Shown: positions 2,416-44,626 of the stretch, one piece after another | How positions within the stretch are numbered: the first letter of the stretch is position 1 | Layout: every line of letters begins with the position of its first letter | IMG/VR virus record: IMGVR_UViG_3300033153_010600 | Coordinates: 1-61,344 of that record | Source: a virus | Lineage: Duplodnaviria; Caudoviricetes | Reading direction: 5' to 3' (one strand) | DNA: 61,344 nt | Notes under the pieces: model-generated | What the model was told of the DNA's origin: nothing | What the model saw: the letters and a program-made list of their open reading frames with translations, nothing else | Database searches by the model: none | Translations under genes and position numbers: made by a program

Positions 2416-2470
2416 CGGCGAATCCTCCGGCCGGTGAAACCGCAAACGGCATGCCGAACCGGGGCCTAGC

Positions 2471-2534
2471 ACTTTCTGGGGGAAGGGTCGGCTGAGCCGA
2501 CCCTTACCTACTATCCGGGGGGGGCTCTTGCGAC
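2471..2534 (+). repeat. Dispersed palindromic element, copy 1 of 3
   Basis: GGGGGAAGGGTCGGCTGAGCCGACCCTT.CCTACTATCCGGGGGGGG; also at 26667-26733 (+) and 44540-44614 (-). Confidence 0.85.
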
Positions 2535-7337: not shown

Positions 7338-7792
7338 TGGGGCATACCTACTGCCGAAAATGCGGCTGGACCGGCAGTCGCCCGGGCACCGGCCGGATGC
7401 CCGATCCGAACCGGCGCTGGTGGCAATTCTGGCGCACCGTGCCGTGCGACGCGTGCGGTGGATCGGGGTACGCCAAACCGGGACCGCCACCCAAAGGCCC
7501 GTTTCCTCCACCACCGCCGCCGGGGCCTCCGCCCCGCAAATGCACCTGTGACGGGAGCGGGCCGACGCCGGGCTCGCCGAGGCCATGCTCGCGGTGGATT
7601 TCGATGGACGACGCCAAGCCTACCGAGGACAACGTCTATCTCGTTTTCGCCCCGAGCGCCAATCCAAAGTCGCCGTTCATTCACACAGCCTGGTACTGCC
7701 TCCGCCACGAGCGATGGGAAGTGATACACCACTTCTGGGCCGGCAAGATTACCCATTGGATGCCGCTGCCGCTTCCTCCATCTACCCCATGA
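7337..7792 (+). CDS. Zn-finger + DUF551-like protein
   Basis: CRKCG/CDACGGSG, then RWISMDDAKP...ITHWMPLPLPP (DUF551 signature). Confidence 0.65.
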   Translation: MGHTYCRKCGWTGSRPGTGRMPDPNRRWWQFWRTVPCDACGGSGYAKPGPPPKGPFPPPPPPGPPPRKCTCDGSGPTPGSPRPCSRWISMDDAKPTEDNVYLVFAPSANPKSPFIHTAWYCLRHERWEVIHHFWAGKITHWMPLPLPPSTP

Positions 7793-25677: not shown

Positions 25678-25972
25678 TTCGCAACACACTTCTCAGATTT
25701 CAGCCGTTGTCACTAGGTGAGGAGGATACGAAACTGACCGAGAGGCTGCTCTCGCAACACACTTCTCAGACTTCAGCCGTTGTCACGCCCGGATGATGGG
25801 CGTGAGGCGGTCCTATTTCTCGCAACACACTTCTCAGATTTTAGCCGTCGTCACCACACCCGCGCGGTTGACACTGGCCCCATCTCGGCTACTCGCAACA
25901 CACTTCTCGATTTTTAGCCGTCGTTACTAGCGACAAACGCCGGCGCGATCCCGCACTCTCGCAACACACTTC
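25678..25972 (-). CRISPR. CRISPR array A: 15-nt handle + 4 full repeats, 4 spacers
   Basis: Repeats at 25678, 25751, 25819, 25892 and half repeat 25958-72; TGCTATAAT on the minus strand at 25982-90 just upstream of the half repeat. Confidence 0.93.
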
Positions 25973-26228
25973 ATGCTCCCTATTATAGCAGCCTTGACGG
26001 CCGAGCGTCCATGGATTCCCGAAGGGAACCTAACTCCTACCCCCGCAACGATTTAGGGTTTCCGGCCGAAATTGCCCGGGAGAAGGTATAATAGGCATCG
26101 TGGACGCAAGATGACGATCGCCGAACTGCCCGATGGCGCGGCCGGGCTGCGAAAGCAGCATGGGATAGAAGTGTGTTGCGAGGTCGCTCCCTGTCCACCG
26201 GCCGCGTTTTTTTTGTGGAGGCTAGAGC

Positions 26229-27130: not shown

Positions 27131-28198
27131 ATGTGCGAGTTCTTATCCGGCGTGGTCACGATAGAACGGTGCCCTCGTGTGCTTTGTGCCGATTTATGGC
27201 ATCACGAGCGCACGGTGGAGGCGTTCGATCTCAAACCAGAAACGTACCGGGAGTGGGAATGGACTAGGGACGACGACGGCGCCAGCCTCACGGTGCGTGC
27301 CGCGCCGGGCGAAAAAAGCAGCGTGCTGAAGTCGGCTATTCTTGCGAAGTTCCCAACGCGGGAAGACGCGCTGAGGGATTGTATCGCACAAACGTTGGAG
27401 AAAGGTGGTTCGCTCTCCCTTTGCGATTGCACGCTACCCGATAATCTAACGCTACCCGAGTCGATCGGCGGCGGGCTCGACTTTAGTAGATGTACACTAC
27501 CCGATGGTCTGACGCTACCCGAGTCGATCGGCGGCGGGCTCGACTTTAGTAGATGTACACTACCCGATGGTCTGACGCTACCCAAGACGATAGACGGTTG
27601 GCTCAACCTTAGTTACTGCGTGCTGCCTGCCGATTTGACGTTGCCCAAGTCGATCGGCGGTGCATTCTACTTTCGCGGTTGCACGCTGCCCGCTGGTTTG
27701 ACGCTGCCCAAAACAGTAGGCGGTTGTCTCGACCTTTGCGGTTGCACGCTGCCCGCCGATTTGAAGCTACCCGAGTCGGTCGGCGAGTGGTTCTACCTTT
27801 ACGACTGCAAACTGCCTGCCGGATTGACACTACCCAAGTCGATAGGCGGTTGGCTCGATCTTCGCGGTTGCCCATTACCTACTGGCCTGACGCTGCCCGA
27901 GTCGATCGGCGGCGGGCTTGACCTTCGCGGTTGCACGCTACCCGCCGATTTGAAGCTGCCCAAATTGGTAGGCGACTGGCTCTACCTTAGCGGTTGCTCA
28001 TTGCCTGTTGGTCTAACGCTACCCAAGATAGTCGGCGGTTCGCTCTCCCTTTGCGATTGCAAGCTACCCGCCGGATTGAAGCTACCTGAGTCGATTGGCG
28101 GTTGCCTTGACCTTCGTCGCTGCACGCTGGCTGAGGGGCTAACATTGGACCTGAGCAAATATAGTGTGGTCCGCGCTGCAAGCTGGCTGAAGGCTTAA
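27131..28198 (+). CDS. LRR-like 21-aa repeat protein, paralog 1
   Basis: Shared MCEFLSG N-terminal domain + tandem LPESIGGxLDLxGCTLPAGLT. Confidence 0.9.
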   Translation: MCEFLSGVVTIERCPRVLCADLWHHERTVEAFDLKPETYREWEWTRDDDGASLTVRAAPGEKSSVLKSAILAKFPTREDALRDCIAQTLEKGGSLSLCDCTLPDNLTLPESIGGGLDFSRCTLPDGLTLPESIGGGLDFSRCTLPDGLTLPKTIDGWLNLSYCVLPADLTLPKSIGGAFYFRGCTLPAGLTLPKTVGGCLDLCGCTLPADLKLPESVGEWFYLYDCKLPAGLTLPKSIGGWLDLRGCPLPTGLTLPESIGGGLDLRGCTLPADLKLPKLVGDWLYLSGCSLPVGLTLPKIVGGSLSLCDCKLPAGLKLPESIGGCLDLRRCTLAEGLTLDLSKYSVVRAASWLKA

Positions 28199-28251
28199 CA
28201 TTGGACCTGAGCAAGTACCGTATAATCCGCTAGGCAACAGGAGCCATCACA

Positions 28252-29361
28252 ATGTGCAAATTTTTATCCGGCGTGGTCACGATGGAGCGGTGCCCGCGAG
28301 TGCTCTGCGCCGACCTATGGCACCACGAGCGTACGGTGGAGGCGTTCGGCCTTAAGCCGGAGACGTACCGAGAATGGGAATGGCTCGAAGACGACGACGG
28401 CGCCAGCCTCACGGTGCGTGCTATACCCGATGAAAATCCCAACGTGTTGAAGTCGGCCATCCTAGCGAAATACCCGACGCGGGAAGAAGCGCTGAGGGCT
28501 TGTATTGCACAGGTGTTAGAGAGACATGGCAGGCTCGATTTCGGTGATTGCGTGCTGCCTGCCAACCTAACACTACCTGAGTTGATAGACGGTTGTCTCG
28601 ACTTTAGCGGATGTGCACTACCCGCCAGTCTAACACTACCCGAGACGATAGGCGAATGGCTCGATCTTAGTGGTTGTGTATTGCCTGCCGAATTAACGCT
28701 ACCCAAGTCAGTCGGCAGTTCACTCTACCTCTGCAACTGCGTGTTACCCGCTAGTTTGGAGTTACCTGAGACGATTGGTGGCTCACTTAACCTTAGTGGC
28801 TGCAAGTTGCCTGTTGGATTAACGCTACCCAATCCAATAGACGGTATACTCAACCTCAACGGCTGCACGCTACCTATTGGTTTGACGCTACCCGAGTCGA
28901 TCGGCGGCGGGCTCGACCTTCGCGGTTGCACGCTGCCCGCCGATTTGAAGCTACCCGAGTCGATCGGCGGCTCGCTTGACCTTCGCGGTTGCTCATTGCC
29001 TATTGGTCTAACGCTACCCAAGACAGTCGGCGGTTCGCTCTCCCTTTGCGATTGCAAGCTACCCGCCGGATTGAAGCTACCCGAGTCGATTAGCGGCGGA
29101 CTCGACCTTTGTGGTTGCGTACTGCCTGCCGATCTGAAGATGCCCGAGTCGGTGGGCGATTGGCTCTACCTTAGCGGTTGCTTATTGCCCGTTGGTCTAA
29201 CGCTACCCGAGACAGTCGGCGGTTCGCTCTACCTTTGCGATTGCGAGTTACCTGCTAGGCTAACGCTACCCGAGTCGATCGGCGGCTCGCTTGACCTTCG
29301 CGGTTGCACGCCGGCTGAAGGCTTAACATTGGACCTGAGCAAGTACCGCGTGATCCGTTAA
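28252..29361 (+). CDS. LRR-like repeat protein, paralog 2
   Basis: Same architecture; AGGAG RBS. Confidence 0.9.
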   Translation: MCKFLSGVVTMERCPRVLCADLWHHERTVEAFGLKPETYREWEWLEDDDGASLTVRAIPDENPNVLKSAILAKYPTREEALRACIAQVLERHGRLDFGDCVLPANLTLPELIDGCLDFSGCALPASLTLPETIGEWLDLSGCVLPAELTLPKSVGSSLYLCNCVLPASLELPETIGGSLNLSGCKLPVGLTLPNPIDGILNLNGCTLPIGLTLPESIGGGLDLRGCTLPADLKLPESIGGSLDLRGCSLPIGLTLPKTVGGSLSLCDCKLPAGLKLPESISGGLDLCGCVLPADLKMPESVGDWLYLSGCLLPVGLTLPETVGGSLYLCDCELPARLTLPESIGGSLDLRGCTPAEGLTLDLSKYRVIR

Positions 29362-29379
29362 TCAACAGGAGCCATCACA

Positions 29380-30678
29380 ATGTGCGAGTTCTTATCCGGC
29401 GTGGTCACGATGGAGCGGTGCCCGCGAGTGCTCTGCGCTGATTTGCGGCATTGCGAATACACAGTGGCAGCGTTCGGTCTTAAGCCGGAGACGTACCGAG
29501 AATGGGAATGGCTCGAAGACGACGACGGAGCCAGCCTCACGGTGTATGCCGCGCCCGGCGAAGAAGGCAGCGTGCTGAAGTCGGCCATCCTGGCAAAATA
29601 CCCGACGCGGGAAGACGCGCTGAGGGCTTGCGTCGCTCAGGCGTTGGAGAAACGCGGTTTGCTCGACTTTCGCAGCTGTACGCTACCCGCTGATTTGAAG
29701 CTACCCGAGTCGATGGATGACTCGCTCAATCTTCGCTATTGCACGCTACCCGACGGATTGACGCTACCCAAGTCGATCGGTGGCTGGCTCGACCTTAACA
29801 ACTCCGTGCTACCCGACGGTTTGAAGCTACCCGAATCGGTAGGCGGCTCGCTCGACCTTAGTGGCTGCAAGTTGCCTGTTGGATTGACGCTACCCAAGTC
29901 GATCGGCGGCTCGCTCGACCTTAGCGATTGTAAGCTGCACGCTGGATTGAAATTACCCAAGTCGGTGGGCAAGTGGCTCTACCTTTGCGGCTGCACGCTA
30001 CCCAACGGGCTGACGTTGCCTAAGTCGATGAACGGTTCGCTTGACCTCAGCTACTGCACGCTACCCGCCGATCTGAAGCTACCCAAGTCGATTGGCGGCT
30101 CGCTTGACCTCTATTACTGCGTGCTACCTGCTGGCCTGACGCTGCCCGAGTCGATCGGCGGCGGGCTCGATCTTCGCGGCTGCGTATTACCCGCTGGGCT
30201 GACGCTGCCCGAGTCGATCGGCGATGAACTCTGCCTTCGCAACTGCACGCTGCCCGACGATTTGACGCTGCCCGAGACAATAGGCGGTTGGCTTGACCTT
30301 CGCGGCTGCGTATTACCCGCTAGTCTGACACTACCCGAGTCGATCAGCGGCTCGCTCGATCTTCGCGGCTGCAAGCTACCCGCTAGTCTGTCGCTACCCG
30401 AGTCGATCGGCGGTTCGCTCTACCTTCGCGGCTGCACATTGTCTAGCGATTTGACATTACCCAAATCGGTAGGCGGTTCGTTTAACCTTTGCGATTGCGT
30501 ATTACCTGTTGGGCTGACGCTACCCGAGTCGATTGGCGGTGAACTCTACTTTTGGAATTGTAAGCTACCCGCTGGGCTAACGCTACCCAAGTCGATTGGC
30601 GGTTGGCTCGACCTTAGCGGCTGCACGTTGGCTGAAGGCTTAACGTTGGACCTGAGTAAGTACCGCGTGATCCGTTAA
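29380..30678 (+). CDS. LRR-like repeat protein, paralog 3
   Basis: Same architecture; longest repeat tract. Confidence 0.9.
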   Translation: MCEFLSGVVTMERCPRVLCADLRHCEYTVAAFGLKPETYREWEWLEDDDGASLTVYAAPGEEGSVLKSAILAKYPTREDALRACVAQALEKRGLLDFRSCTLPADLKLPESMDDSLNLRYCTLPDGLTLPKSIGGWLDLNNSVLPDGLKLPESVGGSLDLSGCKLPVGLTLPKSIGGSLDLSDCKLHAGLKLPKSVGKWLYLCGCTLPNGLTLPKSMNGSLDLSYCTLPADLKLPKSIGGSLDLYYCVLPAGLTLPESIGGGLDLRGCVLPAGLTLPESIGDELCLRNCTLPDDLTLPETIGGWLDLRGCVLPASLTLPESISGSLDLRGCKLPASLSLPESIGGSLYLRGCTLSSDLTLPKSVGGSFNLCDCVLPVGLTLPESIGGELYFWNCKLPAGLTLPKSIGGWLDLSGCTLAEGLTLDLSKYRVIR

Positions 30679-30696
30679 TCAACAGGAGCCAATATA

Positions 30697-31512
30697 ATGT
30701 GCGAATTTCTATCCGGCATAGTTACGATGGAGCGGTACCCTCGTGTGCTCTGCGCCGACCTACGGCATCACGAGCGCACGGTGGAGGCGTTCGATCTCAA
30801 GCCGGAAACGTACCGGGAGTGGGAATGGGTCGAGGACGACGACGGAGCCAGCCTCACGGTGCGTGCCGCGCCCGGCGAGAATCCCAGCGTGCTGAAGTCG
30901 GCCATCCTGGCGAAATACCCGACGCGGGGAGACGCGCTGAGGACTTGCGTTGCTCAGGCGTTGGAAAAAAGCGGTTCGCTCTACCTTCGCGATTGCAAGC
31001 TGCCTGACGGTTTGACGCTGCCCGAGACGATAGATGGTTGGCTCGACCTTCATGGTTGCGTATTGCCTGCTAGTCTAACGCTACCCAAAACAGTTGGTGG
31101 CTGGCTCAACCTCGACGGCTGCATGCTACCCGCCGGAGTGACGTTACCCGAGTCGATCGGCGGCTGGCTTGACCTCAACAACTCCGTGCTACCCGACGGA
31201 CTAACGCTACCCAAGTTGGTAGGCGATTCGCTCGACCTTCGCGGCTGCAATCTACCTGCTAGTCTGACGCTACCCAAGACAGTTGGCAGTTCACTCTACC
31301 TTTGCGATTGCGAGCTACCCAACGGATTGACATTACCCAAGTTGGTAGGCGGTTCGCTCGACCTTCGCGGTTGCAAGCTACCTGCTGGCCTGACGCTACC
31401 CGAGTCGATCGGCGGTTCGCTCGACCTTCGTCGCTGCACGCTAGCTGAGGGTCTGATATTGGACCTGAGCAAATATAGTGCGGTCCGCGCTGCACGTTGG
31501 CGAAGGGTTTAA
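30697..31512 (+). CDS. LRR-like repeat protein, paralog 4
   Basis: Same architecture; shortest repeat tract. Confidence 0.9.
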   Translation: MCEFLSGIVTMERYPRVLCADLRHHERTVEAFDLKPETYREWEWVEDDDGASLTVRAAPGENPSVLKSAILAKYPTRGDALRTCVAQALEKSGSLYLRDCKLPDGLTLPETIDGWLDLHGCVLPASLTLPKTVGGWLNLDGCMLPAGVTLPESIGGWLDLNNSVLPDGLTLPKLVGDSLDLRGCNLPASLTLPKTVGSSLYLCDCELPNGLTLPKLVGGSLDLRGCKLPAGLTLPESIGGSLDLRRCTLAEGLILDLSKYSAVRAARWRRV

Positions 31513-31589: not shown

Positions 31590-33251
31590 GTGAAGCGCGA
31601 CTGCGGACACGACAGTCCGTCGGGCCTGACTTGCAAGTGCGGGATGACATGGTGCCCTGACTGTTACGACAAGCACATTTGCCCCGAACCACTTCCCCCG
31701 CTGTGGCCGACGCAGGAGCGCGGCATACAGGCGATCCGCAATGCGTTCAGAGCAGGGCACCGACGAATACTCGTGACGGCTCCCTGCGGGGCCGGCAAGA
31801 CGCTTATGATGGCCATGATTGCCCGCGGCGTGCAGGAGAAGTCTCGCCGGGCGATCATCTACAGCAACCGCCGCATGCTCACAACGCAGACGAGCCGCAA
31901 GCTGCACCAAGCCGGCGTGGACCACGGCATGTTTCTCTCCGGCGAGCGGATGGCGTTCTTGCGGGACGTGCAGGTCGCCAGTATCCAGACGGTACACTCG
32001 TGGCTGAAGCGCAAGAAGATCGAGCTGCACCCGGCTGACGCTATAATGATAGACGAACCCCATGCGCAAAAAGGCGAAATGATGCGGTCGCTGATGGCCC
32101 AGCACCTAGAGCAGGGGGCCGTCATCATAGGCTTCACAGCAACGCCGGTCGACTTGGGGGGATACTACGACGTGCTGGTGGAGGCGGGCACGAAGCAGGA
32201 TCTCCGCGAGATCGGGGCGCTGGTGCCGGCCCGCACGTTCGGACCCGACGAGCCGGACCTGCGGCACGTCGGTATCGACAAGCTGGTCTATACGGTCGGC
32301 GAGCAGACGGAGGCAATCATCCGGCCGAAGGTGTTCGGCCGGATATGGGATAACTGGTCGCGGCTACAGAGGGATCTTTTTGGTGTGTTGAACCTACAGC
32401 AGGACGCCCGGCCGACGGTGCTTTTCGCCCCAGGCGTGCCGCACTCACGGTGGTTCGCGGAGCGGTTTGAACACCGTGGAGTCGCTGCCGCCCATATCGA
32501 CGCAACGACGCCCGACGACGAGCGGGCAGAGATCGAAGAGGGGTCGCGGGATGGACGCATCAAAGTCGTATGCAACCGATTCTTGCTACGGGAAGGGATT
32601 GATTGGCCCTGGATCGAACACATGATCCTTGCATGCGTGATGGGGTCAATCCAGACATGGGTGCAGGCTACCGGCCGGGGGCTGCGCGCGTGCCCGGATG
32701 TAGGCAAGCAGTTCGTAATCGTGCAAGATCACGGCGGCCATTGGCATCGCCACGGCGACATCAACGACGACATCGACTGGGTGCTCAGCGACACGTCGGT
32801 TGACGTGCATCGCAAGCGGCGGGAGGCCGTCCAGTCCGGCGAAGTCAAAGAAGACTTCCGATGCCCGCAGTGCGGCGAGATCATCAAGCCGTACGACCTC
32901 CAGCACTTCGGCGGCTGCCCGCATTGCGGCAAGAAATTCAAGCGGTCGGTCCGCGAGGTTGTCCAGGTGGACGGCACGCTCAAGCGAATGTACGGGCCGG
33001 CGAGGCCCCGTAGGCGCAAGCACCCGGTCAAGATGGATTCGGAGAAGCTGTGGGACAAGTGTTTCTGGGGCAGCATGCGGGCAAAGCGGAAGATGACGTT
33101 GGAGCAGACGAAGATGTGGTTCTATTCGGAGCGGCACAAGCGGGGCATGGGCGACGCCCAGCCGCCCTACGGGGCGTGGAACTGCCCGGAACAGGGGAGT
33201 ATCGACTGGACGCGGTACGTGCGTGAGGTGTACGCGAAGTACGTCAAATAG
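31590..33251 (+). CDS. SF2 helicase with Zn finger
   Basis: APCGAGKT, IDEPH, GFTATP, QATGRGLR, CPQC/CPHC. Confidence 0.92.
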   Translation: MKRDCGHDSPSGLTCKCGMTWCPDCYDKHICPEPLPPLWPTQERGIQAIRNAFRAGHRRILVTAPCGAGKTLMMAMIARGVQEKSRRAIIYSNRRMLTTQTSRKLHQAGVDHGMFLSGERMAFLRDVQVASIQTVHSWLKRKKIELHPADAIMIDEPHAQKGEMMRSLMAQHLEQGAVIIGFTATPVDLGGYYDVLVEAGTKQDLREIGALVPARTFGPDEPDLRHVGIDKLVYTVGEQTEAIIRPKVFGRIWDNWSRLQRDLFGVLNLQQDARPTVLFAPGVPHSRWFAERFEHRGVAAAHIDATTPDDERAEIEEGSRDGRIKVVCNRFLLREGIDWPWIEHMILACVMGSIQTWVQATGRGLRACPDVGKQFVIVQDHGGHWHRHGDINDDIDWVLSDTSVDVHRKRREAVQSGEVKEDFRCPQCGEIIKPYDLQHFGGCPHCGKKFKRSVREVVQVDGTLKRMYGPARPRRRKHPVKMDSEKLWDKCFWGSMRAKRKMTLEQTKMWFYSERHKRGMGDAQPPYGAWNCPEQGSIDWTRYVREVYAKYVK

Positions 33252-34954: not shown

Positions 34955-34988
34955 GCACACAAACATCTATGTTGTGGGAGCCGCCGCA

Positions 34989-35807
34989 ATGAGAACCCGA
35001 TCGAGCGGGCTGATGTTGCCCGATCCGAAGAACGACATGGCCAAGTGCGTGACGGAGAACATTGACGGAGTGCTGTCGGTGCTCCGCGACGCGACGGACC
35101 GGCAGCGGTTCGCCTCGTCTGTTGTGATCGCCGCCAACTCGCTCAAGGCGCATTCGTGCCGGCCGGAGTCCGTGGTGATCGCATCTCTGCATGCCGCGAT
35201 GATTGGGCTGGTGCCCGGCCCGGCCGTTCGGCACTGCTACTTTATCCCTCGCAAGCTGCGGAGGGCGGACACCCTGGCCACGTGCCAGCTTGAGGTGGGC
35301 TACCAAGGCTACCTGCATCTCGTCTACGGATGCCGCTACCTCAAAGGCGTCTACTGCGATTGGGTGCTGCGGGGGGAAGAATTCCGACACGGGATGATTG
35401 GGGGCGTGCCGACCATCGAGCACGAGCCGGCCCCGGACCGGGACGACACGGCGGAGGCGCTGCGCAAGACGATGATCGGCGCGTACTGCTACTGGGAGAC
35501 GACGACGGGGTTCGGCAGCCATCGCTATCTGACGCGGAAGCAGATCGACGTGGTAGAGTCGTGCGGCGGCCCTGTCTGGAAGAGCCGCTTCTACGGCGAA
35601 ATGGTGCTCAAGACCCCGCTGCGCCGTGCGGCGAAATGGTGGAACCTCACGGAGCCGCTGTCGATGGCGCTGACGTTGGACGACCAGTTGGAGGCGGGCG
35701 AAGAGCAGAACATAGGGGCTGCGCTGCCGGCGATTTCGCCGGCCGGCGAGGAGCCTGTGGACCTTGACGACATGACCGGAGAGCCCGCCGATGCCGCCAC
35801 CGAATGA
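34989..35807 (+). CDS. recT: RecT-family annealing protein
   Basis: AAMIGLVP..CYFIP..CQLEVGYQGYLHLV..EMVLKTPLRRAAK. Confidence 0.88.
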   Translation: MRTRSSGLMLPDPKNDMAKCVTENIDGVLSVLRDATDRQRFASSVVIAANSLKAHSCRPESVVIASLHAAMIGLVPGPAVRHCYFIPRKLRRADTLATCQLEVGYQGYLHLVYGCRYLKGVYCDWVLRGEEFRHGMIGGVPTIEHEPAPDRDDTAEALRKTMIGAYCYWETTTGFGSHRYLTRKQIDVVESCGGPVWKSRFYGEMVLKTPLRRAAKWWNLTEPLSMALTLDDQLEAGEEQNIGAALPAISPAGEEPVDLDDMTGEPADAATE

Positions 35808-36218: not shown

Positions 36219-37092
36219 ATGAGCAGATCGCAATGGGTCCGCGTCAGTCGACGCGAGCCTTGTCCGGTCTGTCATCCACAAGCCGGACTGGTGCCTTGTA
36301 ACTGGTCCTGAAGGATGTCGTACGGCCGTGATATGCGCCCGCGTCGAGAGCCCCAAGCGCTGCGGCGAGGCTGGCTGGCTCCACAAGCTGCGGGATGACT
36401 GGCGGAATTCGCCCCCGCCCAGACTCGATCCGAAGCCGGAGCGGCCAGAGCCGAAGCGGGACTTCGCGGCGTTCGCGGAGCTGTGCACGACACAGTTGCA
36501 CCGAGACGCCCTGGGGGCGTTTGCCGGGAAGATGGGGCTAAGCGTCGGCTCGCTCGTGCGGCTGGGGCTCGGCTGGTCGCTGGAACATAAGGCGTTCACG
36601 TTCCCAATGCGGCGGGGCTCCGACGGCAAGGTGGTGGGCATCCGGCTGCGTCTACGCAGCGGCCGGAAGCTGGCGGTCAAAGGCGGGAGGGAGGGGCTGT
36701 TTGTGCCGTCGGACACGCCGCGGACTGGCGAGCTGTACCTGCCGGAGGGGCCGACGGACACGGCGGCGCTGCTGGACATCGGCTGCGAGGCGGTAGGGCG
36801 GCCGAGTTGCAACGGCGGCATCCAACACATACTGTCGTTCATCGCGCGGTCGAAGTACGCCGGCATCTGCGTTGTGGCGGACGCGGACGCGCCGGGCCAG
36901 CAGTGGGCGAAGGTGTTGGCGGAAAAGCTGCTACCGTACGCCCCCCGGGTGTGGATCGTCACGCCGCCTGACGGACACAAGGACGTGAGAGACTGGGTGC
37001 GGGGGGGAGCGACAAAACGCAACATTGACGGCGCAGCCGTGCCGCAAGAAACTCGCAACACACTTCTTAGCACAAATGCATTGTACCATTAG
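36219..37092 (+). CDS. Primase (Zn finger + TOPRIM), frameshifted near 36275
   Basis: AGGAG + ATG 36219 MSRSQWVRVSRREPCPVC continues in another frame as HKPDWC..ICAR; EGPTDTAAL, VADADAPG, HKDVRDW. Confidence 0.8.
37052..37088 (-). promoter_or_regulatory. Promoter + repeat-handle cassette, antisense to the primase 3' end
   Basis: TGGTACAAT then GAAGTGTGTTGCGAG (37066-37052). Confidence 0.72.
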
Positions 37093-37720: not shown

Positions 37721-38320
37721 CCGATTTCAGCGGAGCCGGATTTCTCTGGCGAGTCGAATAGATAGACCGACCCTCCCTGGGCATCCCCGTACATGGTAGC
37801 CGTGATGACGCTCGTTGATTCTAGAAGACGCCCGGCTGTCTGCTTCGATCGGCCGGGACCGGTTCGGGCTTCTGCGACACAGGCTGGCAAGGCCCGTGTA
37901 GACCTACTGACGGCGTTCTGTTTGCCGGATGCCTTTTGGACCGGGACGCGGTCGGCGCGGTTGGATCGACTACCAGCTCGTTGCCCGGGAGAAGCCGCGA
38001 TGTGCGGCACAGAATACCTTTCGGCTGCATCGGCCCTCGGGCGGAGATATGCGCCCGCCGATTTGTATTCCGGCTCTTTTTGTGGGGTGAAAGTGCCGGC
38101 ACGACGTAACCCCTCTTCGAGAATCGGTCTCCGCCGAACTATTCGGCTGAATGTAGTATAATATGGGCTAGTGAACGTGTCAACCCCGGCAGGCGAGTCG
38201 GTCTCCGCCTTTGAGTCCCCCAATCGGCCGTAACCCCCGTGCGGGGGGCGAGCCGGGTTTTTCATGGCAACGGCTGAAATCCAAGAAGTGTATAGCGAGC
38301 AAAAGCGAAAGGACAATCGA

Positions 38321-38764
38321 ATGGCCGAAAAAGCACCTGAAGAGCGTTTGTGGGGCTGCATAGTACAAATCATGCTGATGGCGTTTTTCATCTATATCAT
38401 AGGCGTTCTTCTTGCGGCCCTGTTTAAGTCCGCGTCTATGCCGGACGTTACGCCGTCGTACAGGCCGCCTGCCACGCCGTCTTGGGACGACATGTATTCG
38501 TCGCCGGGGCCGTCGCGCAGCAGCGGTGCGACGACTGTCTCGACGTGTACTCTGGCCCCGTCGGCCTCGGCCTACAGGCAGGCCACCGACGCGGCGGCAC
38601 ACGGCAACGGGCTCGGCGTGGCGGCGACCGGCACGGTGATCCTGGAGAGCGGCACGCGGGTCAGGGTGCTCGGCTCGGGCGGGTTCATGCTGAAGCGGGT
38701 GGCCGTGCTGAGCGGACCCTATGCCGGAAAGACGGGCGTGGTTGCGTCGGAAAAAATCCGCTGA
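38321..38764 (+). CDS. Membrane-anchored hypothetical protein
   Basis: N-terminal TM; preceded by a degenerate full repeat at 38264-38299. Confidence 0.6.
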   Translation: MAEKAPEERLWGCIVQIMLMAFFIYIIGVLLAALFKSASMPDVTPSYRPPATPSWDDMYSSPGPSRSSGATTVSTCTLAPSASAYRQATDAAAHGNGLGVAATGTVILESGTRVRVLGSGGFMLKRVAVLSGPYAGKTGVVASEKIR

Positions 38765-38782
38765 GATATGGTATAATAGAAA

Positions 38783-39009
38783 TCAACGGGGTCCTCGCAG
38801 CCCCAATGAGAGGCGAGAAGTACCATGACACCCAAACGGCAATCACGGCGCATCCGTCCCCGATCATGTGCAAGCATGACGGGTGACGGTCGCCGGCTGA
38901 GCGGGTCCGGGCAACTCTCGCTGAAGGCTCCTGAAACAGGCCGGATATGCCGTGAGCCCGGCCGACACACTTCGCCTGGTGCGGTGATTCATCGCCGCAC
39001 CAGGTTTTT
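38783..39009 (+). ncRNA. Candidate tracrRNA
   Basis: TGGTATAAT 38769-77 upstream; CTCGCAG (38794-800) pairs with TTGCGAG; CGACACACTTC (38963-73) pairs with GAAGTGTGTTG; terminator follows. Confidence 0.8.
38975..39009 (+). terminator. Intrinsic terminator
   Basis: 13-bp stem CCTGGTGCGGTGA/TCGCCGCACCAGG with TTCA loop, then TTTTT. Confidence 0.88.
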
Positions 39010-39014
39010 ATTCT

Positions 39015-40676
39015 GGCTGAAATTCAAGAAGTGTGTTGCGAGGCACGGGGCGACCTGGACACGTCACACCTCGTGACGACGGCTGAAATCTGAGAAGTGT
39101 GTTGCGAGACCGAATCTCACCGTAGAGAAGAGCCTCTTTATAGGGTGGCGACAACGGCTGAAATCTGAGAAGTGTGTTGCGAGCGAGCAAACAAAAACGA
39201 AAGGGAAAGGAGAACGACATGGCGACTACAAGACAAGCGTTGTTGGAGCTGAAGAGGCTGGCGGCATCGGCCGCCGACAACCTGTACCGCCGCATCGAGC
39301 TGTCGGCGCAGGTGATGAGCGACCTGGACTGGATTGCCCGCGAGCACGGCGGTTCCGACTTGAAGGCCCAAGACACGTTGCAGGATCAGTTCTTCAGGGA
39401 CCTTGGCGGGTTCATCTCCCTCGGCAAGCTGATTGCGATGTTTCGCAACGTGCCGCAGGAGACGTGGGCCGAGCTGAAGTACGACGTGGCGGCCGTCGAA
39501 GTCGTCTACGACGACCAGGCCATCGAGAAGACGGAGAAGGGGACCAAGACCGCCTGGAAGCCCATTGCGGAGGAGAGGGGCGAAAAGATCGAACGCCTTC
39601 AGCGGCAGATGTCTCAGGTCAACGAGCTGGCCGATAAGCAGCGTTCGGAAATCGACGTGCTGCGGGCGAAGGTTGAAGAGCTGACCCGCGAGAACGAGCG
39701 TCTTCGGGGGCGCGTCGAGGAGCTTCAACGACTGCTCGATAGGCAGGTCGTGCAAGTGTGACGGGAAGTGTGTTGCGAGGGCGAGAACCGGCTTCAGCAC
39801 GTGGTCCCCGCAAGAGGTGACAACGGCTGAAAGCGGAGAAGTGTGTTGTGAGGACGGGGCGATTGCGGGTTGTGACGACGGCTGAAATTGGAGAAGTGTG
39901 TTGCGAGCCGAGTCTGTCCCCGAGGGTGACAACGGCTGAAAATCGAGAAGTGTGTTGCGAGACACGGCGCCCGCGCCCGTCTCGACGCCGCGAGCGACGT
40001 GACAATGGCTGAAAATCGAGAAGTGTGTTGCGAGCACCCGGCTCACGTCCACGCCGCCCGGGCCGGCCCGGTGACAATGGCTGAAATCCGAGAAGTGTGT
40101 TGTGAGAAGGTCACCCACCCTCCGAGTGGTGACAACGGCTGAAATCGGAGAAGTGTGTTGCGAGACCTCCCAGCGCCGCCCGCCGGGGTCGGACAGCTCG
40201 CCCGTGACAACGGCTGAAAATCGAGAAGTGTGTTGCGAGCCGAATAGGTCGGTAAGCTTGGTTGGGTGGTGCTCTCGTGACGATGGCTGAAATTCGAGAA
40301 GTGTGTTGCGAGCAGACCCCAATCGTGCAAGACCGCGACACTAAGGCACGTGACGACGGCTAAAATCTGAGAAGTGTGTTGCGAGCCGACGAAGAATCCC
40401 GCCGTCGCGAGGGAGATGGCCGTGACAACGGCTGAAATCTGAGAAGTGTGTTGCGAGCTGCCATCGTTACCCTTTCAGTCTGGTTATGTTACCCGTGACG
40501 ACGGCTGAAATCCGAGAAGTGTGTTGCGAGGCTTCGGAGTAGGCCAGCCGCCCGTCCAGGTCCGGGGTGATGACGGCTGAAAGTCGAGAAGTGTGTTGCG
40601 AGTGTCCATGATGCAATCGCAGGGGACGCTGCTGGAGGCGCTGACGACGGCTGAAATCGGAGAAGTGTGTAACGAG
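39015..40676 (+). CRISPR. CRISPR array B: 17 repeats (2 partial), 15 spacers, one embedded gene
   Basis: Consensus GTGACRAYGGCTGAAA....AGAAGTGTGTTGCGAG; degenerate last repeat 40641-76; spacers 18-39 nt. Confidence 0.95.
39219..39761 (+). CDS. Coiled-coil protein embedded in array B
   Basis: AAGGAG RBS, 180 aa, C-terminal LRAKVEELTRENERLRGRVEELQRLL; repeats on both sides. Confidence 0.8.
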   Translation: MATTRQALLELKRLAASAADNLYRRIELSAQVMSDLDWIAREHGGSDLKAQDTLQDQFFRDLGGFISLGKLIAMFRNVPQETWAELKYDVAAVEVVYDDQAIEKTEKGTKTAWKPIAEERGEKIERLQRQMSQVNELADKQRSEIDVLRAKVEELTRENERLRGRVEELQRLLDRQVVQV

Positions 40677-40701
40677 CAAACAAGCGAGGGAGCGAGGCAA
40701 A

Positions 40702-41985
40702 ATGGCCATCGGAATTCTAGAAGTCAAGCTGGGGCGTCCGATCCAAATGCCAACGAAGCGGTTCCACCAGCTACTCAGGCAGGCCCGCCGCGATTGCTGC
40801 AAAGCACGCAACGCGGCCATGCTCCACTGGTATGTCTGGCGGCGAGAGCACGCGGATTGGGAGCCGGGAAAACCATACGAGGCGCCGAAAGCCAAGATTA
40901 TGCGAACTCGCAAACCGGCAGGCGAAGGGAAGAAGCCACCGAAGGACTCGCCGATTGCCCCTCGCCTATTTCTTAGCCGCGAACTCTACCACGCGGCAAC
41001 CGCGGCGGCGCGGAACCTGTCGGCGTCGCTCGCCTCGTCGTGTGTACAGGAGGTGATCGCCCGACTCAAGGCCAACACCCCTTACGACCACGACGGCGAA
41101 GCGAGGTGGGTATGGCAAGCAATCCTTGCGTCCGAAGTCAATCTGCCCACCTGGCGCGGCGGGCGCATCCCGATGCCCAAGCGGTGCTCGTCGCTCGGAT
41201 ACGACGGGGCCGTCAGCCAACCGTCGGCTGACGTGGCGAGGGCCTGCAAAAGCGGGTGCGTTTTGAAGTTTCAACTGCTGTCTAGGCTGAGCGGCTATAG
41301 GACGCTATCGCCCATCGTCCGACTGGACGCCGCCGACCTGACGCGGGGCAACCGGCGATTGCTGAGGCGTCTGGCGTCTGGCGAGGTACGTCTGGCAGAC
41401 AGCCAGATCGTCGAGAAAAAGGGCAAGTGGTTCGCCCAATTCTGCTACGAGGTGGCGGCCAACGCGATCGGCCTGCCAACGGATCAGGTGTTGACGCTAC
41501 TGCCGGCGGAGCCGGACGACAAGTGGCCGTTCGCGCTCGCATGGACCAAGGAGGATGGGAATGGGCGGGTGTGGAAGATTGGCAACGGGCGGCCGCTCGT
41601 GGCCGAATACCGCCGGGTAGTAGCCCGGCGCCGGGCGATCCGCTACCGCTACCAGGACGGGACGGGCAGCGGGCACGGGCGCCAGCGGTGGTACAAGGCG
41701 ATTCGTCCGATGGCTCACGCCGTGCGGGACATGCAGAACCGCTTTGAGAAGCAGACGATTGCGGACATCATCAAGCTGGCGATTCGTGAGCGGTGCGGCA
41801 CGGTCCTGTACCGCGAGCCGACGATGCCGGTCCGCAACTATTCGTGGTTTGCGGCCAAGGACGTGCCGTTTGACTGGACGAGTTTCGAGGCGAGGCTGCG
41901 GTTCAAGACGGAGACGCGCGGCCTGGCCTACGAGAAGGCGCGTATCGGGATGAAGGAATGGCGTCCAAGAAAAATCGCAAACTGA
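40702..41985 (+). CDS. cas12f: Cas12f-like effector, predicted nuclease-dead and C-terminally truncated
   Basis: Collinear motifs resembling AsCas12f1 as I recall it: RLASGEVRLADSQIVEKKGKWF, GSGHGRQR, LAIRERCGTV, FEARLRFKTE; no GIDLG Asp, no RuvC-II Glu in register, no Zn finger/RuvC-III; between two arrays. Confidence 0.85.
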   Translation: MAIGILEVKLGRPIQMPTKRFHQLLRQARRDCCKARNAAMLHWYVWRREHADWEPGKPYEAPKAKIMRTRKPAGEGKKPPKDSPIAPRLFLSRELYHAATAAARNLSASLASSCVQEVIARLKANTPYDHDGEARWVWQAILASEVNLPTWRGGRIPMPKRCSSLGYDGAVSQPSADVARACKSGCVLKFQLLSRLSGYRTLSPIVRLDAADLTRGNRRLLRRLASGEVRLADSQIVEKKGKWFAQFCYEVAANAIGLPTDQVLTLLPAEPDDKWPFALAWTKEDGNGRVWKIGNGRPLVAEYRRVVARRRAIRYRYQDGTGSGHGRQRWYKAIRPMAHAVRDMQNRFEKQTIADIIKLAIRERCGTVLYREPTMPVRNYSWFAAKDVPFDWTSFEARLRFKTETRGLAYEKARIGMKEWRPRKIAN

Positions 41986-42278
41986 TCCTCGACTGCGAGA
42001 TATGCGGGGAGCCGGTAGTGCTGTCGCCGTCGCGGTACGTCGCGCTCGTGCGGGCTGGCGAGCGGCCGCGGTGCCGGAAGAACGGGTGCGAGAGGTTGTG
42101 CGGTGCGAAAAGTGCGGGGACCTCTCGCGGCACGCAAGTACTTGCCGGGGCGAGGGTTTCGCCGCTGGTAGTGCAATGGCCCCACACGAAGAGGGGCAAC
42201 AAGAATGGAGCCCTCGCAAAGCTGGCCGTAAAGCGAGACGGCGCATGGCGTTACGAGGGGTGCCGTGACGATGGCTGA
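41958..42278 (+). CDS. Possible small Zn-finger ORF overlapping the effector end
   Basis: CEICG...CRKNGC; runs through the probable leader, so it may be spurious. Confidence 0.35.
   Translation: MASKKNRKLILDCEICGEPVVLSPSRYVALVRAGERPRCRKNGCERLCGAKSAGTSRGTQVLAGARVSPLVVQWPHTKRGNKNGALAKLAVKRDGAWRYEGCRDDG
42085..42264 (+). promoter_or_regulatory. Probable leader of array C
   Basis: Inverted repeat GCGAGAGGT...ACCTCTCGC, second CCCTCGCAAA, and GTAA..TTACG just before the first repeat. Confidence 0.6.
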
Positions 42279-43946
42279 AATCGGAGAAGTGTGTTGCGAG
42301 ACACGAGTTCAGGCGATGTATATACTGGTATGAGCAAGTGACGATGGCTGAAATCGGAGAAGTGTGTTGCGAGGGTCCGACGCCTCCGCAATCTGCTTGG
42401 CGTAGCCGAGTGACAACGGCTGAAATCGGAGAAGTGTGTTGCGAGTGCGAGCGTCCTCCACCCCGAGGCTCGGGTACCTCCCGTGACGACGGCTGAAATC
42501 GGAGAAGTGTGTTGCGAGGCACGTCTCTGGCCTCGCCAATCGCCGCGTTCTTGCCGTGACGATGGCTGAAAATCGAGAAGTGTGTTGCGAGAGAACCGTC
42601 AAGTCCGGGTCGCCACCGTGCGACGACGGCTGAAAGCGGAGAAGTGTGTTGCGAGGCGAATACGAGAGACGTGGGCGCCGACCGTTGGCCGCGTGATGAC
42701 GGCTGAAAGCGGAGAAGTGTGTTGCGAGCTGGTAGCGGCAGGCGTGTATCGCCCGAAAGACGGGCGTGACGCGGCTGAAATCCAAGAAGTGTGTTGCGAG
42801 TAGAGTCTGCATAGGCTCAGCGTGTGACAACGGCTGAAAGTCAAGAAGTGTGTTGCGAGCCTGCCGATCGCCCATTGCGTCTCACTCCTTTCGGGTCGTG
42901 ACGATGGCTAAAATCCGAGAAGTGTGTTGCGAGAAGGTCGCCCACCCTCCGAGTGGTGACGACGGCTGAAATTCGAGAAGTGTGTTGCGAGAATGAAGAG
43001 GGAAGGCAGGGGTTACGATCCCATCCGGCGTGATGATGGCTGAAATCTGAGAAGTGTGTTGCGAGGGGTGGACGTGCCGGCGGCGACGATCACGGTGGAC
43101 GGCGTGACGATGGCTGAAATCGGAGAAGTGTGTTGCGAGTCGAGTAGCTGCCCGGGGGCTTGTAGGCACCGGCCCGCGTGACGATGGCTGAAAATCGAGA
43201 AGTGTGTTGCGAGAACCACGCAATCAGGGAGCTGGCCTGGGAGGGTGTCAAGTGACGACGGCTGAAATCGGAGAAGTGTGTTGCGAGGCCGAAAACCGAA
43301 GACGATCAGCGTGCGATAGCTGGTCGTGACGATGGCTGAAATCTGAGAAGTGTGTTGCGAGAGCACGTACGGGCTCACACCCGGCGGTTGACTCCAGCGG
43401 TGACGACGGCTGAAATCTGAGAAGTGTGTTGCGAGCCCTCCCGTGTGACGAGCCGGATGACCTATACGCAGGTGACGACGGCTGAAAATCAAGAAGTGTG
43501 TTGCGAGTCGCCAACCCGGGGATACGTTCAACGGACAGCTACGGACGTGACGATGGCTGAAATTCGAGAAGTGTGTTGCGAGTTGATCGAGAAGATGTTG
43601 GTGGCTGGCCAGCCGGCGTGTGACGATGGCTGAAATTCGAGAAGTGTGTTGCGAGTCGCGGGCCTTCAGGAGGGCAGTTAGCCGTGATTGCAGTGATGAC
43701 GGCTGAAATCTGAGAAGTGTGTTGCGAGGCGTCGATCAGCGCCAGCGGGGCCGGCCCGTGGAATGCGTGACGATGGCTGAAATCTGAGAAGTGTGTTGCG
43801 AGAAGCCAAGAGGCAATGCGAGCACGGCGAATGGGGGCGTGACAACGGCTGAAAGCGGAGAAGTGTGTTGCGAGGCTGCCCAATGTGCCCTTGTATTTGG
43901 CGAGAGAACGCGTGCCAACGGCTGAATCCAAGAAGTGTGTCGCGAG
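42265..43946 (+). CRISPR. CRISPR array C: 24 repeats, 23 spacers
   Basis: 36-nt repeats at ~73-nt period; degenerate last repeat 43912-46. Confidence 0.97.
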
Positions 43947-44516: not shown

Positions 44517-44626
44517 AGGACGACTCGCAATTTGCCCTGTCGCAAGACGCCCCCCCCGGACAGTAGGGAAGGGTCGGCCGAGCCGACCCTTCCCCCCAAA
44601 AGTACCGTGTCGCCGGAGAAATAGCG

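What the first reader, a model, noticed from the sequence alone, without database searches (positions are those of the whole stretch)
38769..39009. tracrRNA candidate with a split anti-repeat covering exactly the conserved handle
Seen: extended -10 TGGTATAAT; a 5' hairpin GGGGT-CCTCGCA-GCCCC displaying the complement of TGCGAG; 3' CGACACACTTC complementary to GAAGTGTGTTG (one G-U); then a 13-bp terminator. Known: Cas12f tracrRNAs pair with the repeat through two separate segments. Inference: this fixes crRNA orientation as GTGAC...TTGCGAG-spacer and explains why only the 3' 15 nt are conserved.
Basis: partly seen in the sequence, partly recalled or inferred. Interest (0 to 1): 0.8.

Follow-up and report, generated by a model that had tools for sequence, protein, structure and literature searches.

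The report
Helper RNA for phage's non-cutting Cas12f
A roughly 225-base RNA gene in an uncultured phage is very probably a true tracrRNA: its two short pairing segments change in step with the CRISPR repeat across related phages, and it accompanies a miniature Cas12f-like protein that seems unable to cut DNA.

Summary

Within this one sequence the complementarity is only suggestive; 11 of 500 shuffles pair as well. Comparison with related phages decides it.
- The RNA lies upstream of the same 427-aa gene in 14 of 16 related loci that have at least 1 kb of upstream sequence.
- In 12 loci with different repeat ends, the 3' segment pairs with the cognate repeat at 105 of 108 variable cells. None of 200,000 re-assignments of RNAs to repeats reaches that.
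- The hairpin loop shows two independent compensatory changes.
- A repeat end predicted from a newly found RNA occurred 15 times in that phage and 0 times in the control.

So this is a Cas12f-type bipartite anti-repeat, a long stem plus a short pseudoknot stem. It covers repeat positions -1 to -15 and fixes the orientation as repeat-then-spacer.

The partner protein has a Cas12f fold but lacks the RuvC residues and the C-terminal zinc finger, so it is probably nuclease-dead.

Of the 77 handle copies, 27 are solitary. Many of those sit directly behind promoters or in 5' UTRs.

Expression and protein binding were not tested.

The parts
38769..38777 (+). Extended -10 promoter TGGTATAAT of the tracrRNA. 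The predicted start is about 38784-38786.
   Evidence: It is one of 11 TGNTATAAT sites in the window against 0.33 expected. It is not conserved in the 14 other loci.
38784..39010 (+). Predicted tracrRNA transcript, about 226 nt.
   Evidence: A profile of 14 homologues matches 38785-39009 with E 5e-50. Consensus structure: 89.9% of cells paired, 17 of 31 pairs with double changes, 0 of 500 shuffles as good. MFE z = -3.97.
38788..38804 (+). 5' hairpin. Its loop CTCGCA (38794-38799) is the short anti-repeat, or pseudoknot partner, for repeat positions -6 to -1 (TGCGAG).
   Evidence: 6 of 6 pairs in 11 of 12 loci, with compensatory changes in L001 and L030.
38808..38921 (+). Scaffold core. Box GAGAGGCGAGAAGT (38808-38821) pairs with AACTCTCGC (38913-38921) and encloses variable stem-loops.
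   Evidence: helix 2, 96.4% of cells paired, mostly invariant.
38963..38973 (+). 3' long anti-repeat CGACACACTTC, pairing with repeat positions -5 to -15 (GAAGTGTGTTG).
   Evidence: 105 of 108 cells paired across 12 loci; 0 of 200,000 permutations as good.
38974..39010 (+). Intrinsic terminator: a 14-pair stem and a T run.
   Evidence: Helix 4 has double changes at 10 of 10 pairs.
39007..39183 (+). Three-unit mini-array directly after the terminator, with handles at 39028, 39094 and 39169. The last handle ends 35 nt before the next start codon.
39219..39761 (+). Conserved 180-aa coiled-coil protein gene of the module. Function unknown.
   Evidence: Found by tblastn in 27 of 37 related loci and in G001. 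No family above threshold.
39744..40676 (+). CRISPR array 1 with 14 handle copies at about 73-nt period.
40702..41985 (+). 427-aa Cas12f-like effector (P0001), probably nuclease-dead.
   Evidence: Profile against PDB: AsCas12f 7wju, E 7e-16. AF2 model pLDDT 90.3. Foldseek top hit 7wju, E 1e-18. RuvC residues are substituted or absent.
41958..42278 (+). Conserved 106-aa zinc-ribbon protein (P0050) immediately after the effector.
   Evidence: Found in 30 of 37 related loci and in G001. Four invariant Cys. Its C-terminal half is fused to the effector in 9 distant homologues.
42265..43946 (+). CRISPR array 2 with 24 handle copies.
25678..25990 (-). Promoter-led array. TGCTATAAT (25982-25990) is followed 9 nt later by a bare handle, then four full repeats, then a methyltransferase gene.

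Best explanation
38784-39010(+) most likely encodes a trans-acting CRISPR RNA (tracrRNA) of a phage-borne, Cas12f-derived system.

How it would work:
1. The RNA is transcribed from its own extended -10 promoter and ends at an intrinsic terminator (inferred).
2. It pairs with any RNA that carries the 15-nt repeat end GAAGUGUGUUGCGAG, through two segments (shown by covariation).
   - The 3' segment CGACACACUUC forms a 9-11 bp long stem with repeat positions -15 to -5/-7. This stem stacks against the terminator helix.
   - The loop CUCGCA of the 5' hairpin forms a 5-6 bp pseudoknot stem with positions -6 to -1, right next to the guide.
3. The result is a dual-guide RNA of the Cas12f1/Cas12b type, handle-then-spacer. 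It is presumably bound by the neighbouring 427-aa Cas12f-like protein (inferred from synteny and fold).
4. That protein lacks the RuvC catalytic residues, so the complex probably binds targets without cutting them (inferred).

Because only the 15-nt handle is needed for pairing, the handle alone, when placed at a transcription start, should be enough to turn a transcript into a guide.
For: 1. Homologues of the RNA lie upstream on the same strand as the effector gene in 14 of 16 related loci with at least 1000 nt upstream. They also occur, partly cut off, in 4 of 21 shorter loci. The order tracr, coiled-coil gene, effector, Zn-ribbon gene, array is also seen in a 95%-complete 37.7-kb phage, G001.
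2. Intermolecular covariation: 105 of 108 cells are paired at handle positions -7 to -15 in 12 loci, and 0 of 200,000 permutations reach this. With 10 loci the figure was 89 of 90, and slid registers gave 23-51.
3. The pseudoknot loop is compensated twice independently, in L001 and L030, and has wobble-compatible changes in L006 and L020.
4. A blind prediction of the handle from a new tracr was confirmed: 15 exact hits, 0 in the control.
5. It is a structured RNA. Consensus structure: 17 of 31 pairs with double changes and 0 of 500 shuffles as good. Single-sequence fold: z = -3.97.
6. The partner is Cas12f-like by sequence profile and by fold.
7. In L035 the tracr homologue is fused through a 4-nt loop to a handle, forming a natural single guide.
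8. Published Cas12f1 duplexes have exactly this architecture, a long R/AR stem plus a 5-7 bp short R/AR pseudoknot (PMC11246509, passages read).
Against: - There are no expression data. No sequencing run was listed, so the ends of the RNA are predictions.
- The sigma70-type promoter is not found upstream of the homologue in any of 14 other loci. Elsewhere the RNA may be made differently or processed from a longer transcript.
- Two of 16 loci with enough upstream sequence lack a detectable homologue. In L004 the upstream space is filled by arrays; L037 has a 27%-identical effector.
- In this sequence alone the complementarity is weak evidence: 11 of 500 shuffles do as well.
- The long stem is short (9-12 bp) compared with classical anti-repeats.
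- For L020 and L027 the handle rests on a single copy.
- Binding by the protein was not tested and cannot be tested with these tools.
- No match to any Rfam family.
Confidence: 0.82

Rival explanations
1. It is a trans-acting regulatory small RNA, an 'anti-handle'. It pairs with the handle on phage mRNAs and array transcripts to direct RNase cleavage or to alter translation. It does this on its own, without acting as a scaffold for the Cas12f-like protein.
For: Pairing with the handle is shown, but protein binding is not. 27 of the 77 handle copies are solitary. Many of them sit 1-46 nt before start codons or at transcription starts, where a pairing sRNA could act directly.
Against: The RNA is tightly syntenic with the effector gene (14 of 16 loci). 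Its roughly 200-nt conserved scaffold carries invariant boxes far beyond what pairing needs. Its bipartite pairing reproduces the Cas12f1 guide architecture. In L035 it is fused to a handle like a single-guide RNA.
Confidence: 0.1
2. It is a decoy or RNA anti-CRISPR. The phage RNA soaks up the crRNAs or the Cas12f of a host type V-F system rather than serving a phage system.
For: Phages are known to carry solitary repeats and repeat-like RNAs that interfere with host CRISPR systems. This is recalled; the earlier scan note e1-5824728 cites PMC10651486, which I did not read.
Against: The RNA covaries with the repeats carried by the same phage. It sits in a conserved module with the phage's own effector and arrays. 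No relative of the effector was found in 185,579 species genomes.
Confidence: 0.03
3. It is a chance complementarity inside a leader or small protein-coding region (ORF 38825-39076, 83 aa).
For: An 83-aa ORF overlaps the region. The single-sequence duplex energy is not exceptional.
Against: The ORF runs through the terminator. The start codon is not kept in homologues: L005 and L020 have CCGAG, and L006 has CCGTG. The homologues differ by indels that are not multiples of three. Base-pair covariation occurs both within the RNA and with the repeat.
Confidence: 0.02

Closest known systems
tracrRNA:crRNA dual guide of type V-F1 Cas12f1 (AsCas12f, Un1Cas12f1), and the similar Cas12b duplex
   Same: - A long (about 200 nt) structured tracrRNA is encoded beside the cas gene.
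- The repeat-derived handle lies 5' of the guide.
- Pairing is bipartite: a long repeat/anti-repeat stem plus a pseudoknot with a 5-7 bp short stem next to the guide (PMC11246509).
- The effector has the AsCas12f fold.
   Different: - The effector lacks the RuvC Asp and Glu and the whole Zn-finger/RuvC-III tail.
- The long stem is only 9-12 bp and covers just 15-17 nt of a 36-nt repeat.
- The system is carried by a phage.
- Two extra conserved small proteins belong to the module.
- Bare handles occur at promoters and in 5' UTRs.
dCas12f-sigmaE RNA-guided transcription systems (PMC13472631; PDB 9n9c)
   Same: Both have a C-terminally truncated, RuvC-inactive Cas12f homologue that should bind DNA without cutting. 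The structure 9n9c is matched at Foldseek E 2e-13 and profile E 7.5e-8.
   Different: Those systems use a single chimeric guide RNA, and the authors found no tracrRNA-like species. Most lack CRISPR arrays and are linked to a sigmaE gene (passages read). Here there is a separate tracrRNA, large arrays and no adjacent sigma factor gene.
Phage-encoded TldR (TnpB-like nuclease-dead repressors)
   Same: Both are phage-borne, nuclease-dead, RNA-guided proteins of the TnpB/Cas12 lineage used for regulation rather than cleavage (abstracts and listing seen; passage in PMC13472631).
   Different: TldR uses one omega-RNA-like guide encoded next to the gene. It has no arrays and no tracrRNA. The protein is closer to TnpB than to Cas12f.
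Solitary repeat units, mini-arrays and crRNA-like regulatory RNAs (CreR/CreA type; viral SRUs/Racrs)
   Same: Stand-alone repeat ends with their own promoters, placed outside arrays.
   Different: This comparison rests on recall and on the earlier scan notes; I read none of these papers here. In this phage the solitary handles match the phage's own tracrRNA and effector, and they head ordinary mRNAs and antisense RNAs.
Engineered 'reprogrammed tracrRNAs' that turn any cellular RNA into a Cas12 guide (PMC11246509)
   Same: The principle is shared: a tracrRNA can recruit an mRNA as a guide if the mRNA carries the two short pairing sites.
   Different: There the tracrRNA is redesigned to fit the mRNA. 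Here natural transcripts carry the cognate 15-nt handle.

Membership tests
tracrRNA of a type V (Cas12f/Cas12b-like) system | Encoded in trans next to the cas gene and array, on a defined strand | tested here: met
   It lies 1.7 kb upstream of the effector on the same strand. Homologues are in the same position in 14 of 16 loci with at least 1 kb upstream and in G001.
tracrRNA of a type V (Cas12f/Cas12b-like) system | An anti-repeat that base-pairs with the CRISPR repeat | tested here: met
   105 of 108 cells paired in 12 loci, 0 of 200,000 permutations as good. Blind prediction of the handle confirmed.
tracrRNA of a type V (Cas12f/Cas12b-like) system | Bipartite pairing: a long R/AR stem plus a short 5-7 bp R/AR pseudoknot stem adjacent to the guide | tested here: met
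   The loop hexamer pairs 6 of 6 in 11 of 12 loci, with two compensatory events. The feature is defined in PMC11246509.
tracrRNA of a type V (Cas12f/Cas12b-like) system | Expressed as a discrete small RNA | not testable with these tools
   No sequencing run was listed. The promoter and terminator are predictions.
tracrRNA of a type V (Cas12f/Cas12b-like) system | Bound by the effector and required for guide function or maturation | not testable with these tools
   No RNA-protein modelling or assay is available here.
Cas12f (type V-F effector nuclease) | Cas12f fold (WED, REC, RuvC core) | tested here: met
   AF2 model pLDDT 90.3. Foldseek top hits are AsCas12f chains at E 1e-18. Profile against 7wju gives E 7e-16.
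Cas12f (type V-F effector nuclease) | Intact RuvC catalytic triad and a C-terminal Zn-finger (TNB) domain | tested here: not met
   Position 225 of 7wju (GIALG in the deposited chain; I recall the wild type as Asp) aligns to Leu. E324 aligns to the invariant R371. The alignment ends at 7wju residue 359 of 422 and the protein stops about 20 residues later. The assignment of the catalytic residues is recalled, not taken from a call.
dCas12f-sigmaE RNA-guided transcription system | A single chimeric guide RNA without a tracrRNA, and an adjacent sigmaE gene with a C-terminal extension | tested here: not met
   A separate tracrRNA and arrays are present. The neighbouring genes are a coiled-coil protein and a Zn-ribbon protein. 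The only sigma-r4-like HTH hit is 30 kb away and below the Pfam cut-off.
Viral solitary repeat unit / RNA anti-CRISPR | The repeat mimics that of a host CRISPR-Cas system which the phage lacks | tested here: not met
   The phage carries its own effector, tracrRNA and arrays with the same handle. No cellular relative of the effector was found.

The most novel reading that the evidence does not exclude
In this phage the tracrRNA and the non-cutting Cas12f may form a genome-wide device that acts on the phage's own transcripts, and not only an array-fed targeting system.

The observations behind this reading:
- 27 of the 77 handle copies are solitary.
- 13 solitary copies sit 8-13 nt behind a -10 element, so the transcript would begin with the handle.
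- About 10 head 5' UTRs, 1-46 nt before a start codon.
- 8-11 start antisense RNAs over the 3' ends of genes.

The tracrRNA would then convert ordinary phage mRNAs and antisense RNAs into guide RNAs, or capture them on the protein. This would give RNA-guided control of phage gene expression, timing or mRNA fate. It would be a natural counterpart of engineered reprogrammed tracrRNAs.
Probability: 0.3. Interest if true: 0.9.

Novelty: new variant of a known kind. Interest (0 to 1): 0.72.

Why it matters
A tracrRNA with a bipartite anti-repeat is textbook for Cas12f. Three things here are not.

1. It serves a phage-encoded Cas12f derivative that appears nuclease-dead. The published nuclease-dead Cas12f systems use single guides and have no tracrRNA (PMC13472631, passages read).
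2. Its footprint, 15 nt of a 36-nt repeat, defines a minimal portable tag. The phage has copied this tag onto promoters and 5' UTRs across its genome.
3. The effector family is large in metagenomes: 151 cluster representatives at E <= 1e-30. It is absent from cultured phages and from 185,579 species genomes.

The covarying handle-tracr pairs from 12 phages give ready-made orthogonal guide scaffolds for a roughly 420-aa DNA binder. They also make directly testable the question of what a phage does with a programmable non-cutting Cas protein.

Tried and rejected
- Rfam: no family at gathering score in the window. Only sub-threshold chance hits appear in 38700-39250.
- Sequencing runs: none was listed for 38700-40800, so no read mapping was done.
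- Sigma70 promoter scan requiring a -35 element: 0 sites in 38200-39800. The promoter call rests on the extended -10 alone.
- Conserved promoter upstream of tracr homologues: none in 14 other loci.
- Targets of the guides:
  - Array spacers and solitary guides show no match to the phage's own DNA beyond their own loci and one spacer shared by both arrays.
  - Seed matches are not enriched. With K = 14 and 1 mismatch there are 7 observed against a mean of 2.5 and a maximum of 7 in shuffles, and 4 of the 7 are guide-to-guide pairs.
  - Cross-matches among related loci are all homologous arrays or homologous flanks.
  - No PAM could be derived.
- Cellular relatives of the effector: none in genome contigs.
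- Cultured phages: no tblastn match for the effector. The terminase has only hits of 27.5% identity or less, so the host is unknown.
- Coiled-coil and Zn-ribbon proteins: no Pfam, NCBIfam, PHROG or PDB family. Atlas hits for the coiled-coil protein score 0.82 or less, which is chance level.
- Complex prediction of the effector with the Zn-ribbon protein: no verdict.
- Pairing between the tracrRNA and the 5' 21 nt of the repeat: none found by cofolding. L001 carries two repeat types that share only the handle.
- My first register for the covariation script was off by one base and gave 44 of 120 pairs. I keep it as an unintended slid control.
- Literature: searches found no description of a tracrRNA-dependent nuclease-dead Cas12f in phages. 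The Thermus-phage Cas12r system (10.64898/2026.04.20.719267, passages read) is different: 29-bp repeats and no tracrRNA.

Full report
CONTEXT. The window is a 61-kb virus record of phage type. It encodes a portal/Mu-F fusion at 3045-6191(-), a large terminase at 7782-9506(-), RecT at 34974-35807 and a helicase at 31590-33251. It carries a 36-nt repeat, GTGACGACGGCTGAAATCNGA|GAAGTGTGTTGCGAG. The last 15 nt, called the handle here, occur 77 times at up to 2 mismatches against 0.11 expected. Fifty copies lie in arrays or pairs: 14 at 39765-40676, 24 at 42286-43946, 3 at 39028-39183, 5 at 25972-25678 on the - strand, and two pairs. The other 27 are solitary.

THE EFFECTOR. Between the two large arrays lies a 427-aa ORF, 40702-41985 (P0001). 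It has no Pfam family. It matches AsCas12f structures by sequence at E 2e-9 alone and E 7e-16 as a 48-sequence profile. It also matches by fold: the AF2 model has pLDDT 90.3, and the top Foldseek hits are AsCas12f at E 1e-18, with the nuclease-deactivated Cas12f 9n9c at E 2e-13. In the profile alignment, position 225 of the chain (GIALG in the deposited mutant) falls on a Leu of the family. E324 falls on the invariant R371. The family ends about 20 residues after chain position 359 of 422, so the zinc finger and the third RuvC motif are absent. That D225, E324 and D401 are the catalytic residues is my recollection and comes from no call. The effector is therefore best described as a Cas12f derivative that probably cannot cut.

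THE OBSERVATION.
- TGGTATAAT at 38769-38777.
- Hairpin at 38788-38804 with loop CTCGCA.
- CGACACACTTC at 38963-38973.
- A 14-pair terminator at 38974-39005, followed by a T run.

The 11-mer is the only CRACACACTTC in the window that is not simply the opposite strand of a repeat copy (1 of 68 matches). Taken alone the complementarity is modest. The best handle-tracr duplex is -17.7 kcal/mol, and 11 of 500 shuffled tracr sequences do as well. The RNA as a whole folds unusually well (z = -3.97, 0 of 200 shuffles as good), and the centroid shows the 5' hairpin, a long-range helix and the terminator.

COMPARATIVE TEST. The effector family was used to fetch 1 viral locus and 36 metagenomic loci. A profile of the RNA finds homologues on the effector's strand in 18 of these 37 loci. 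That is 14 of the 16 loci with at least 1000 nt upstream, and 4 (partly cut off) of the 21 shorter ones. The two exceptions are L004, whose upstream space is filled with 21 handle copies up to the contig end, and L037, whose effector is only 27% identical.

Fourteen distinct RNAs align over about 226 columns with invariant boxes. On the RNAalifold consensus, 89.9% of cells are paired and 17 of 31 pairs show changes on both sides. No shuffle out of 500 reaches any of the five measures, and slid partners give 40-51% paired.

PAIRING WITH THE REPEAT. The repeat end differs between phages: GAAGTGTGTTGCGAG here, GAGAGCATGTTGCAAG in L001, GAGGTGTGATGCGAG in L008, CGAAACGTGATGCGAG in L023, GTCGAAGTGAGAG in L030, and so on.

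For the test I used the 12 loci where both a handle and a complete tracr 3' end are known: the window, L001, L005, L006, L008, L011, L017, L020, L023, L027, L030 and L041/G001. I left out the following.
- L003 and L025, which have no repeat on the contig.
- L035, where tracr and handle are fused.
- L010 and L019, which have partial tracrs and are close kin of L025 and L017.
- L014, L015 and L033, which are duplicates.

In L020 and L027 the handle rests on a single copy.

In these 12 loci the 3' segment pairs with its own phage's handle at 105 of 108 cells over positions -7 to -15. When RNAs are re-dealt among phages the mean is 72.8 and the maximum 95, and 0 of 200,000 permutations reach 105. 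All nine positions show two or more Watson-Crick pair types. With the first 10 loci the figure was 89 of 90, and slid registers gave 23-51.

The G-U at position -6 is kept in 11 of 12 loci. Further G-U pairs occur in L006 and L017. Such pairs exist only if the + strand repeat is the RNA partner.

The loop hexamer pairs with positions -6 to -1 at 6 of 6 in 11 of 12 loci. It has two independent compensatory changes: TGCAAG with CTTGCA in L001, and TGAGAG with CTCTCA in L030. It also has two wobble-compatible changes.

Positions -5 and -6 are claimed by both segments. In addition, the first C of the 3' segment closes a tracr helix in 13 of 14 sequences. The real split is therefore probably -15 to -7 for the long stem and -6/-5 to -1 for the pseudoknot stem.

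BLIND PREDICTION. A scan of viral contigs for the conserved box CAACTCTCGCWGAAGGC gave six loci. Three of them (L040-L042, one phage) contain a full tracr homologue not used before. The other three match only the box over 19-28 nt and are taken as chance. From the new RNA's 3' segment and loop I predicted the handle GGAATGATGCGAG. The 37.7-kb record (G001, 95% complete) holds 15 exact copies on the tracr's strand at about 72-nt period, with 0 for the reversed control. They lie directly after the effector and Zn-ribbon genes. G001 has no scattered copies even at 2 mismatches. The basic system is therefore tracr, effector and one array, and the dispersal of handles is an elaboration of the window's phage and some relatives.

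A NATURAL FUSION. In L035 (effector 31% identical) the tracr homologue runs without a terminator into CGTCA-TACG-TGATGCGAG. This is a 5-bp version of the long stem closed by a tetraloop, followed by the handle. The guide position is then occupied by the 31-nt 5' UTR of the effector gene itself. This is the architecture of an engineered single-guide RNA, and it ties the tracr and the handle together functionally.

WHAT IT IS AND HOW IT WORKS. The pairing of this RNA with the repeat end is shown by covariation. That it is a discrete transcript is inferred from the promoter and terminator. That it is bound by the Cas12f-like protein is inferred from synteny, from the fusion in L035, and from the match to the published Cas12f1/Cas12b guide architecture, a long R/AR stem plus a pseudoknot with a 5-7 bp short R/AR stem (PMC11246509, passages read). 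The footprint -1 to -15 explains why the handle alone is kept in the solitary copies.

COMPARISON WITH WHAT IS KNOWN. The RNA meets the testable criteria for a type V-F-like tracrRNA. The protein meets the fold criterion for Cas12f but fails the catalytic criterion. The published nuclease-dead Cas12f systems differ. They use single guides, the authors report no tracrRNA-like species, and they are linked to sigmaE, although the paper mentions some dCas12f genes near CRISPR arrays (PMC13472631, passages read). Four literature searches found no description of a tracrRNA-dependent dead Cas12f in phages. Supplementary files could not be seen. Two earlier notes of this scan, on other genomes, describe promoter-plus-handle units alongside a nuclease-dead Cas12f in huge phages. 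I treat them as leads. My window shows the same kind of unit independently.

OPEN POINTS.
- Targets are unknown. Guides have no significant matches to the phage's own DNA or to related loci, and no PAM could be derived.
- The host is unknown.
- The promoter is not conserved outside this phage.
- The roles of the conserved coiled-coil protein and Zn-ribbon protein are unknown.

VERDICT. The finding is a new variant of a known kind: a bona fide Cas12f-type tracrRNA that serves a phage-borne, apparently non-cutting effector and defines a 15-nt portable tag that this phage uses genome-wide.

Noticed in passing
window, 27 solitary handle copies (e.g. 53353+, 53156-, 47725+, 46622-, 47596-, 46064-, 49757-, 25972-): The bare 15-nt handle sits 8-9 nt after TATAAT-like -10 boxes. 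Five of the 11 TGNTATAAT sites in the window are followed by a handle, one drives the tracrRNA, and one (33407) leads into a full repeat. These transcripts should start with the handle and need no processing.
   Followed up: partly
window 13668+, 17013+, 18577+, 37066-, 44475-, 56619-: A second promoter class, GGTAC(A/C)ATGCAnTnnTGCTnA followed by the handle, is always oriented antisense at or near the 3' end of a gene on the other strand (for example 36328-37092 and 55612-56628). This suggests handle-headed antisense RNAs.
   Followed up: partly
window 38285, 39169, 40662, 47979, 18250(-), 23200(-), 59220(-), 33499, 26168; also L001 129-147: Handles or full repeats lie 1-46 nt before start codons of ordinary genes, including the coiled-coil gene and the effector gene. 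Many phage mRNAs would therefore carry the handle in their 5' UTR. The UTRs after them often begin CGAG and are purine-rich.
   Followed up: partly
window 41958-42278 (+); L001 3898-4206 and 28 other loci: A 106-aa protein with four invariant Cys (a zinc ribbon) always follows the effector gene. It is 55-73% identical in loci where the effector is 54-68% identical. Its C-terminal half (TAR...KRG...APLA motif) is fused to the effector's C-terminus in 9 distant family members (P0087, P0095, P0098, P0109, P0141, P0149, P0160, P0168; P0125 by eye).
   Followed up: partly
L035 4737-4971: A natural single-guide form. The tracr homologue is fused through a TACG loop to a handle, and the guide position is the 5' UTR of the effector gene itself. 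There is no array in the 7.3-kb locus.
   Followed up: partly
window 2470-2533(-), 26690-26740(-), 44540-44600(+): Three copies of a roughly 60-nt element, TCGCAAGA..GCCCCCCCCGGAyAGTAGG.AAGGGTCGGC.GAGCCGACCCTTCCCCC, with a 10-bp hairpin. It may be a shared terminator. The copy at 2533(-) sits directly after a handle.
   Followed up: no
window 40107-40133 and 42934-42960: The two large arrays share one spacer, identical at 26 of 27 positions.
   Followed up: no
window 27131-31512 (+): Five consecutive genes are built from 63-bp (21-aa) tandem units. They show weak LRR similarity (PF00560, E 2e-5).
   Followed up: no
window 3045-6191 (-): A 1048-aa fusion of portal and Mu-F-like domains, with a weak, sub-threshold intein-splicing match at residues 771-1024.
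   Followed up: no
L001 2268-2634 versus 4211-4320: One phage carries two repeat types with unrelated 5' parts (GGTGGAACCAATCCTAGTTT... and GTCACAACGACTGAATTTGA...) that share only the handle GAGAGCATGTTGCAAG.
   Followed up: no
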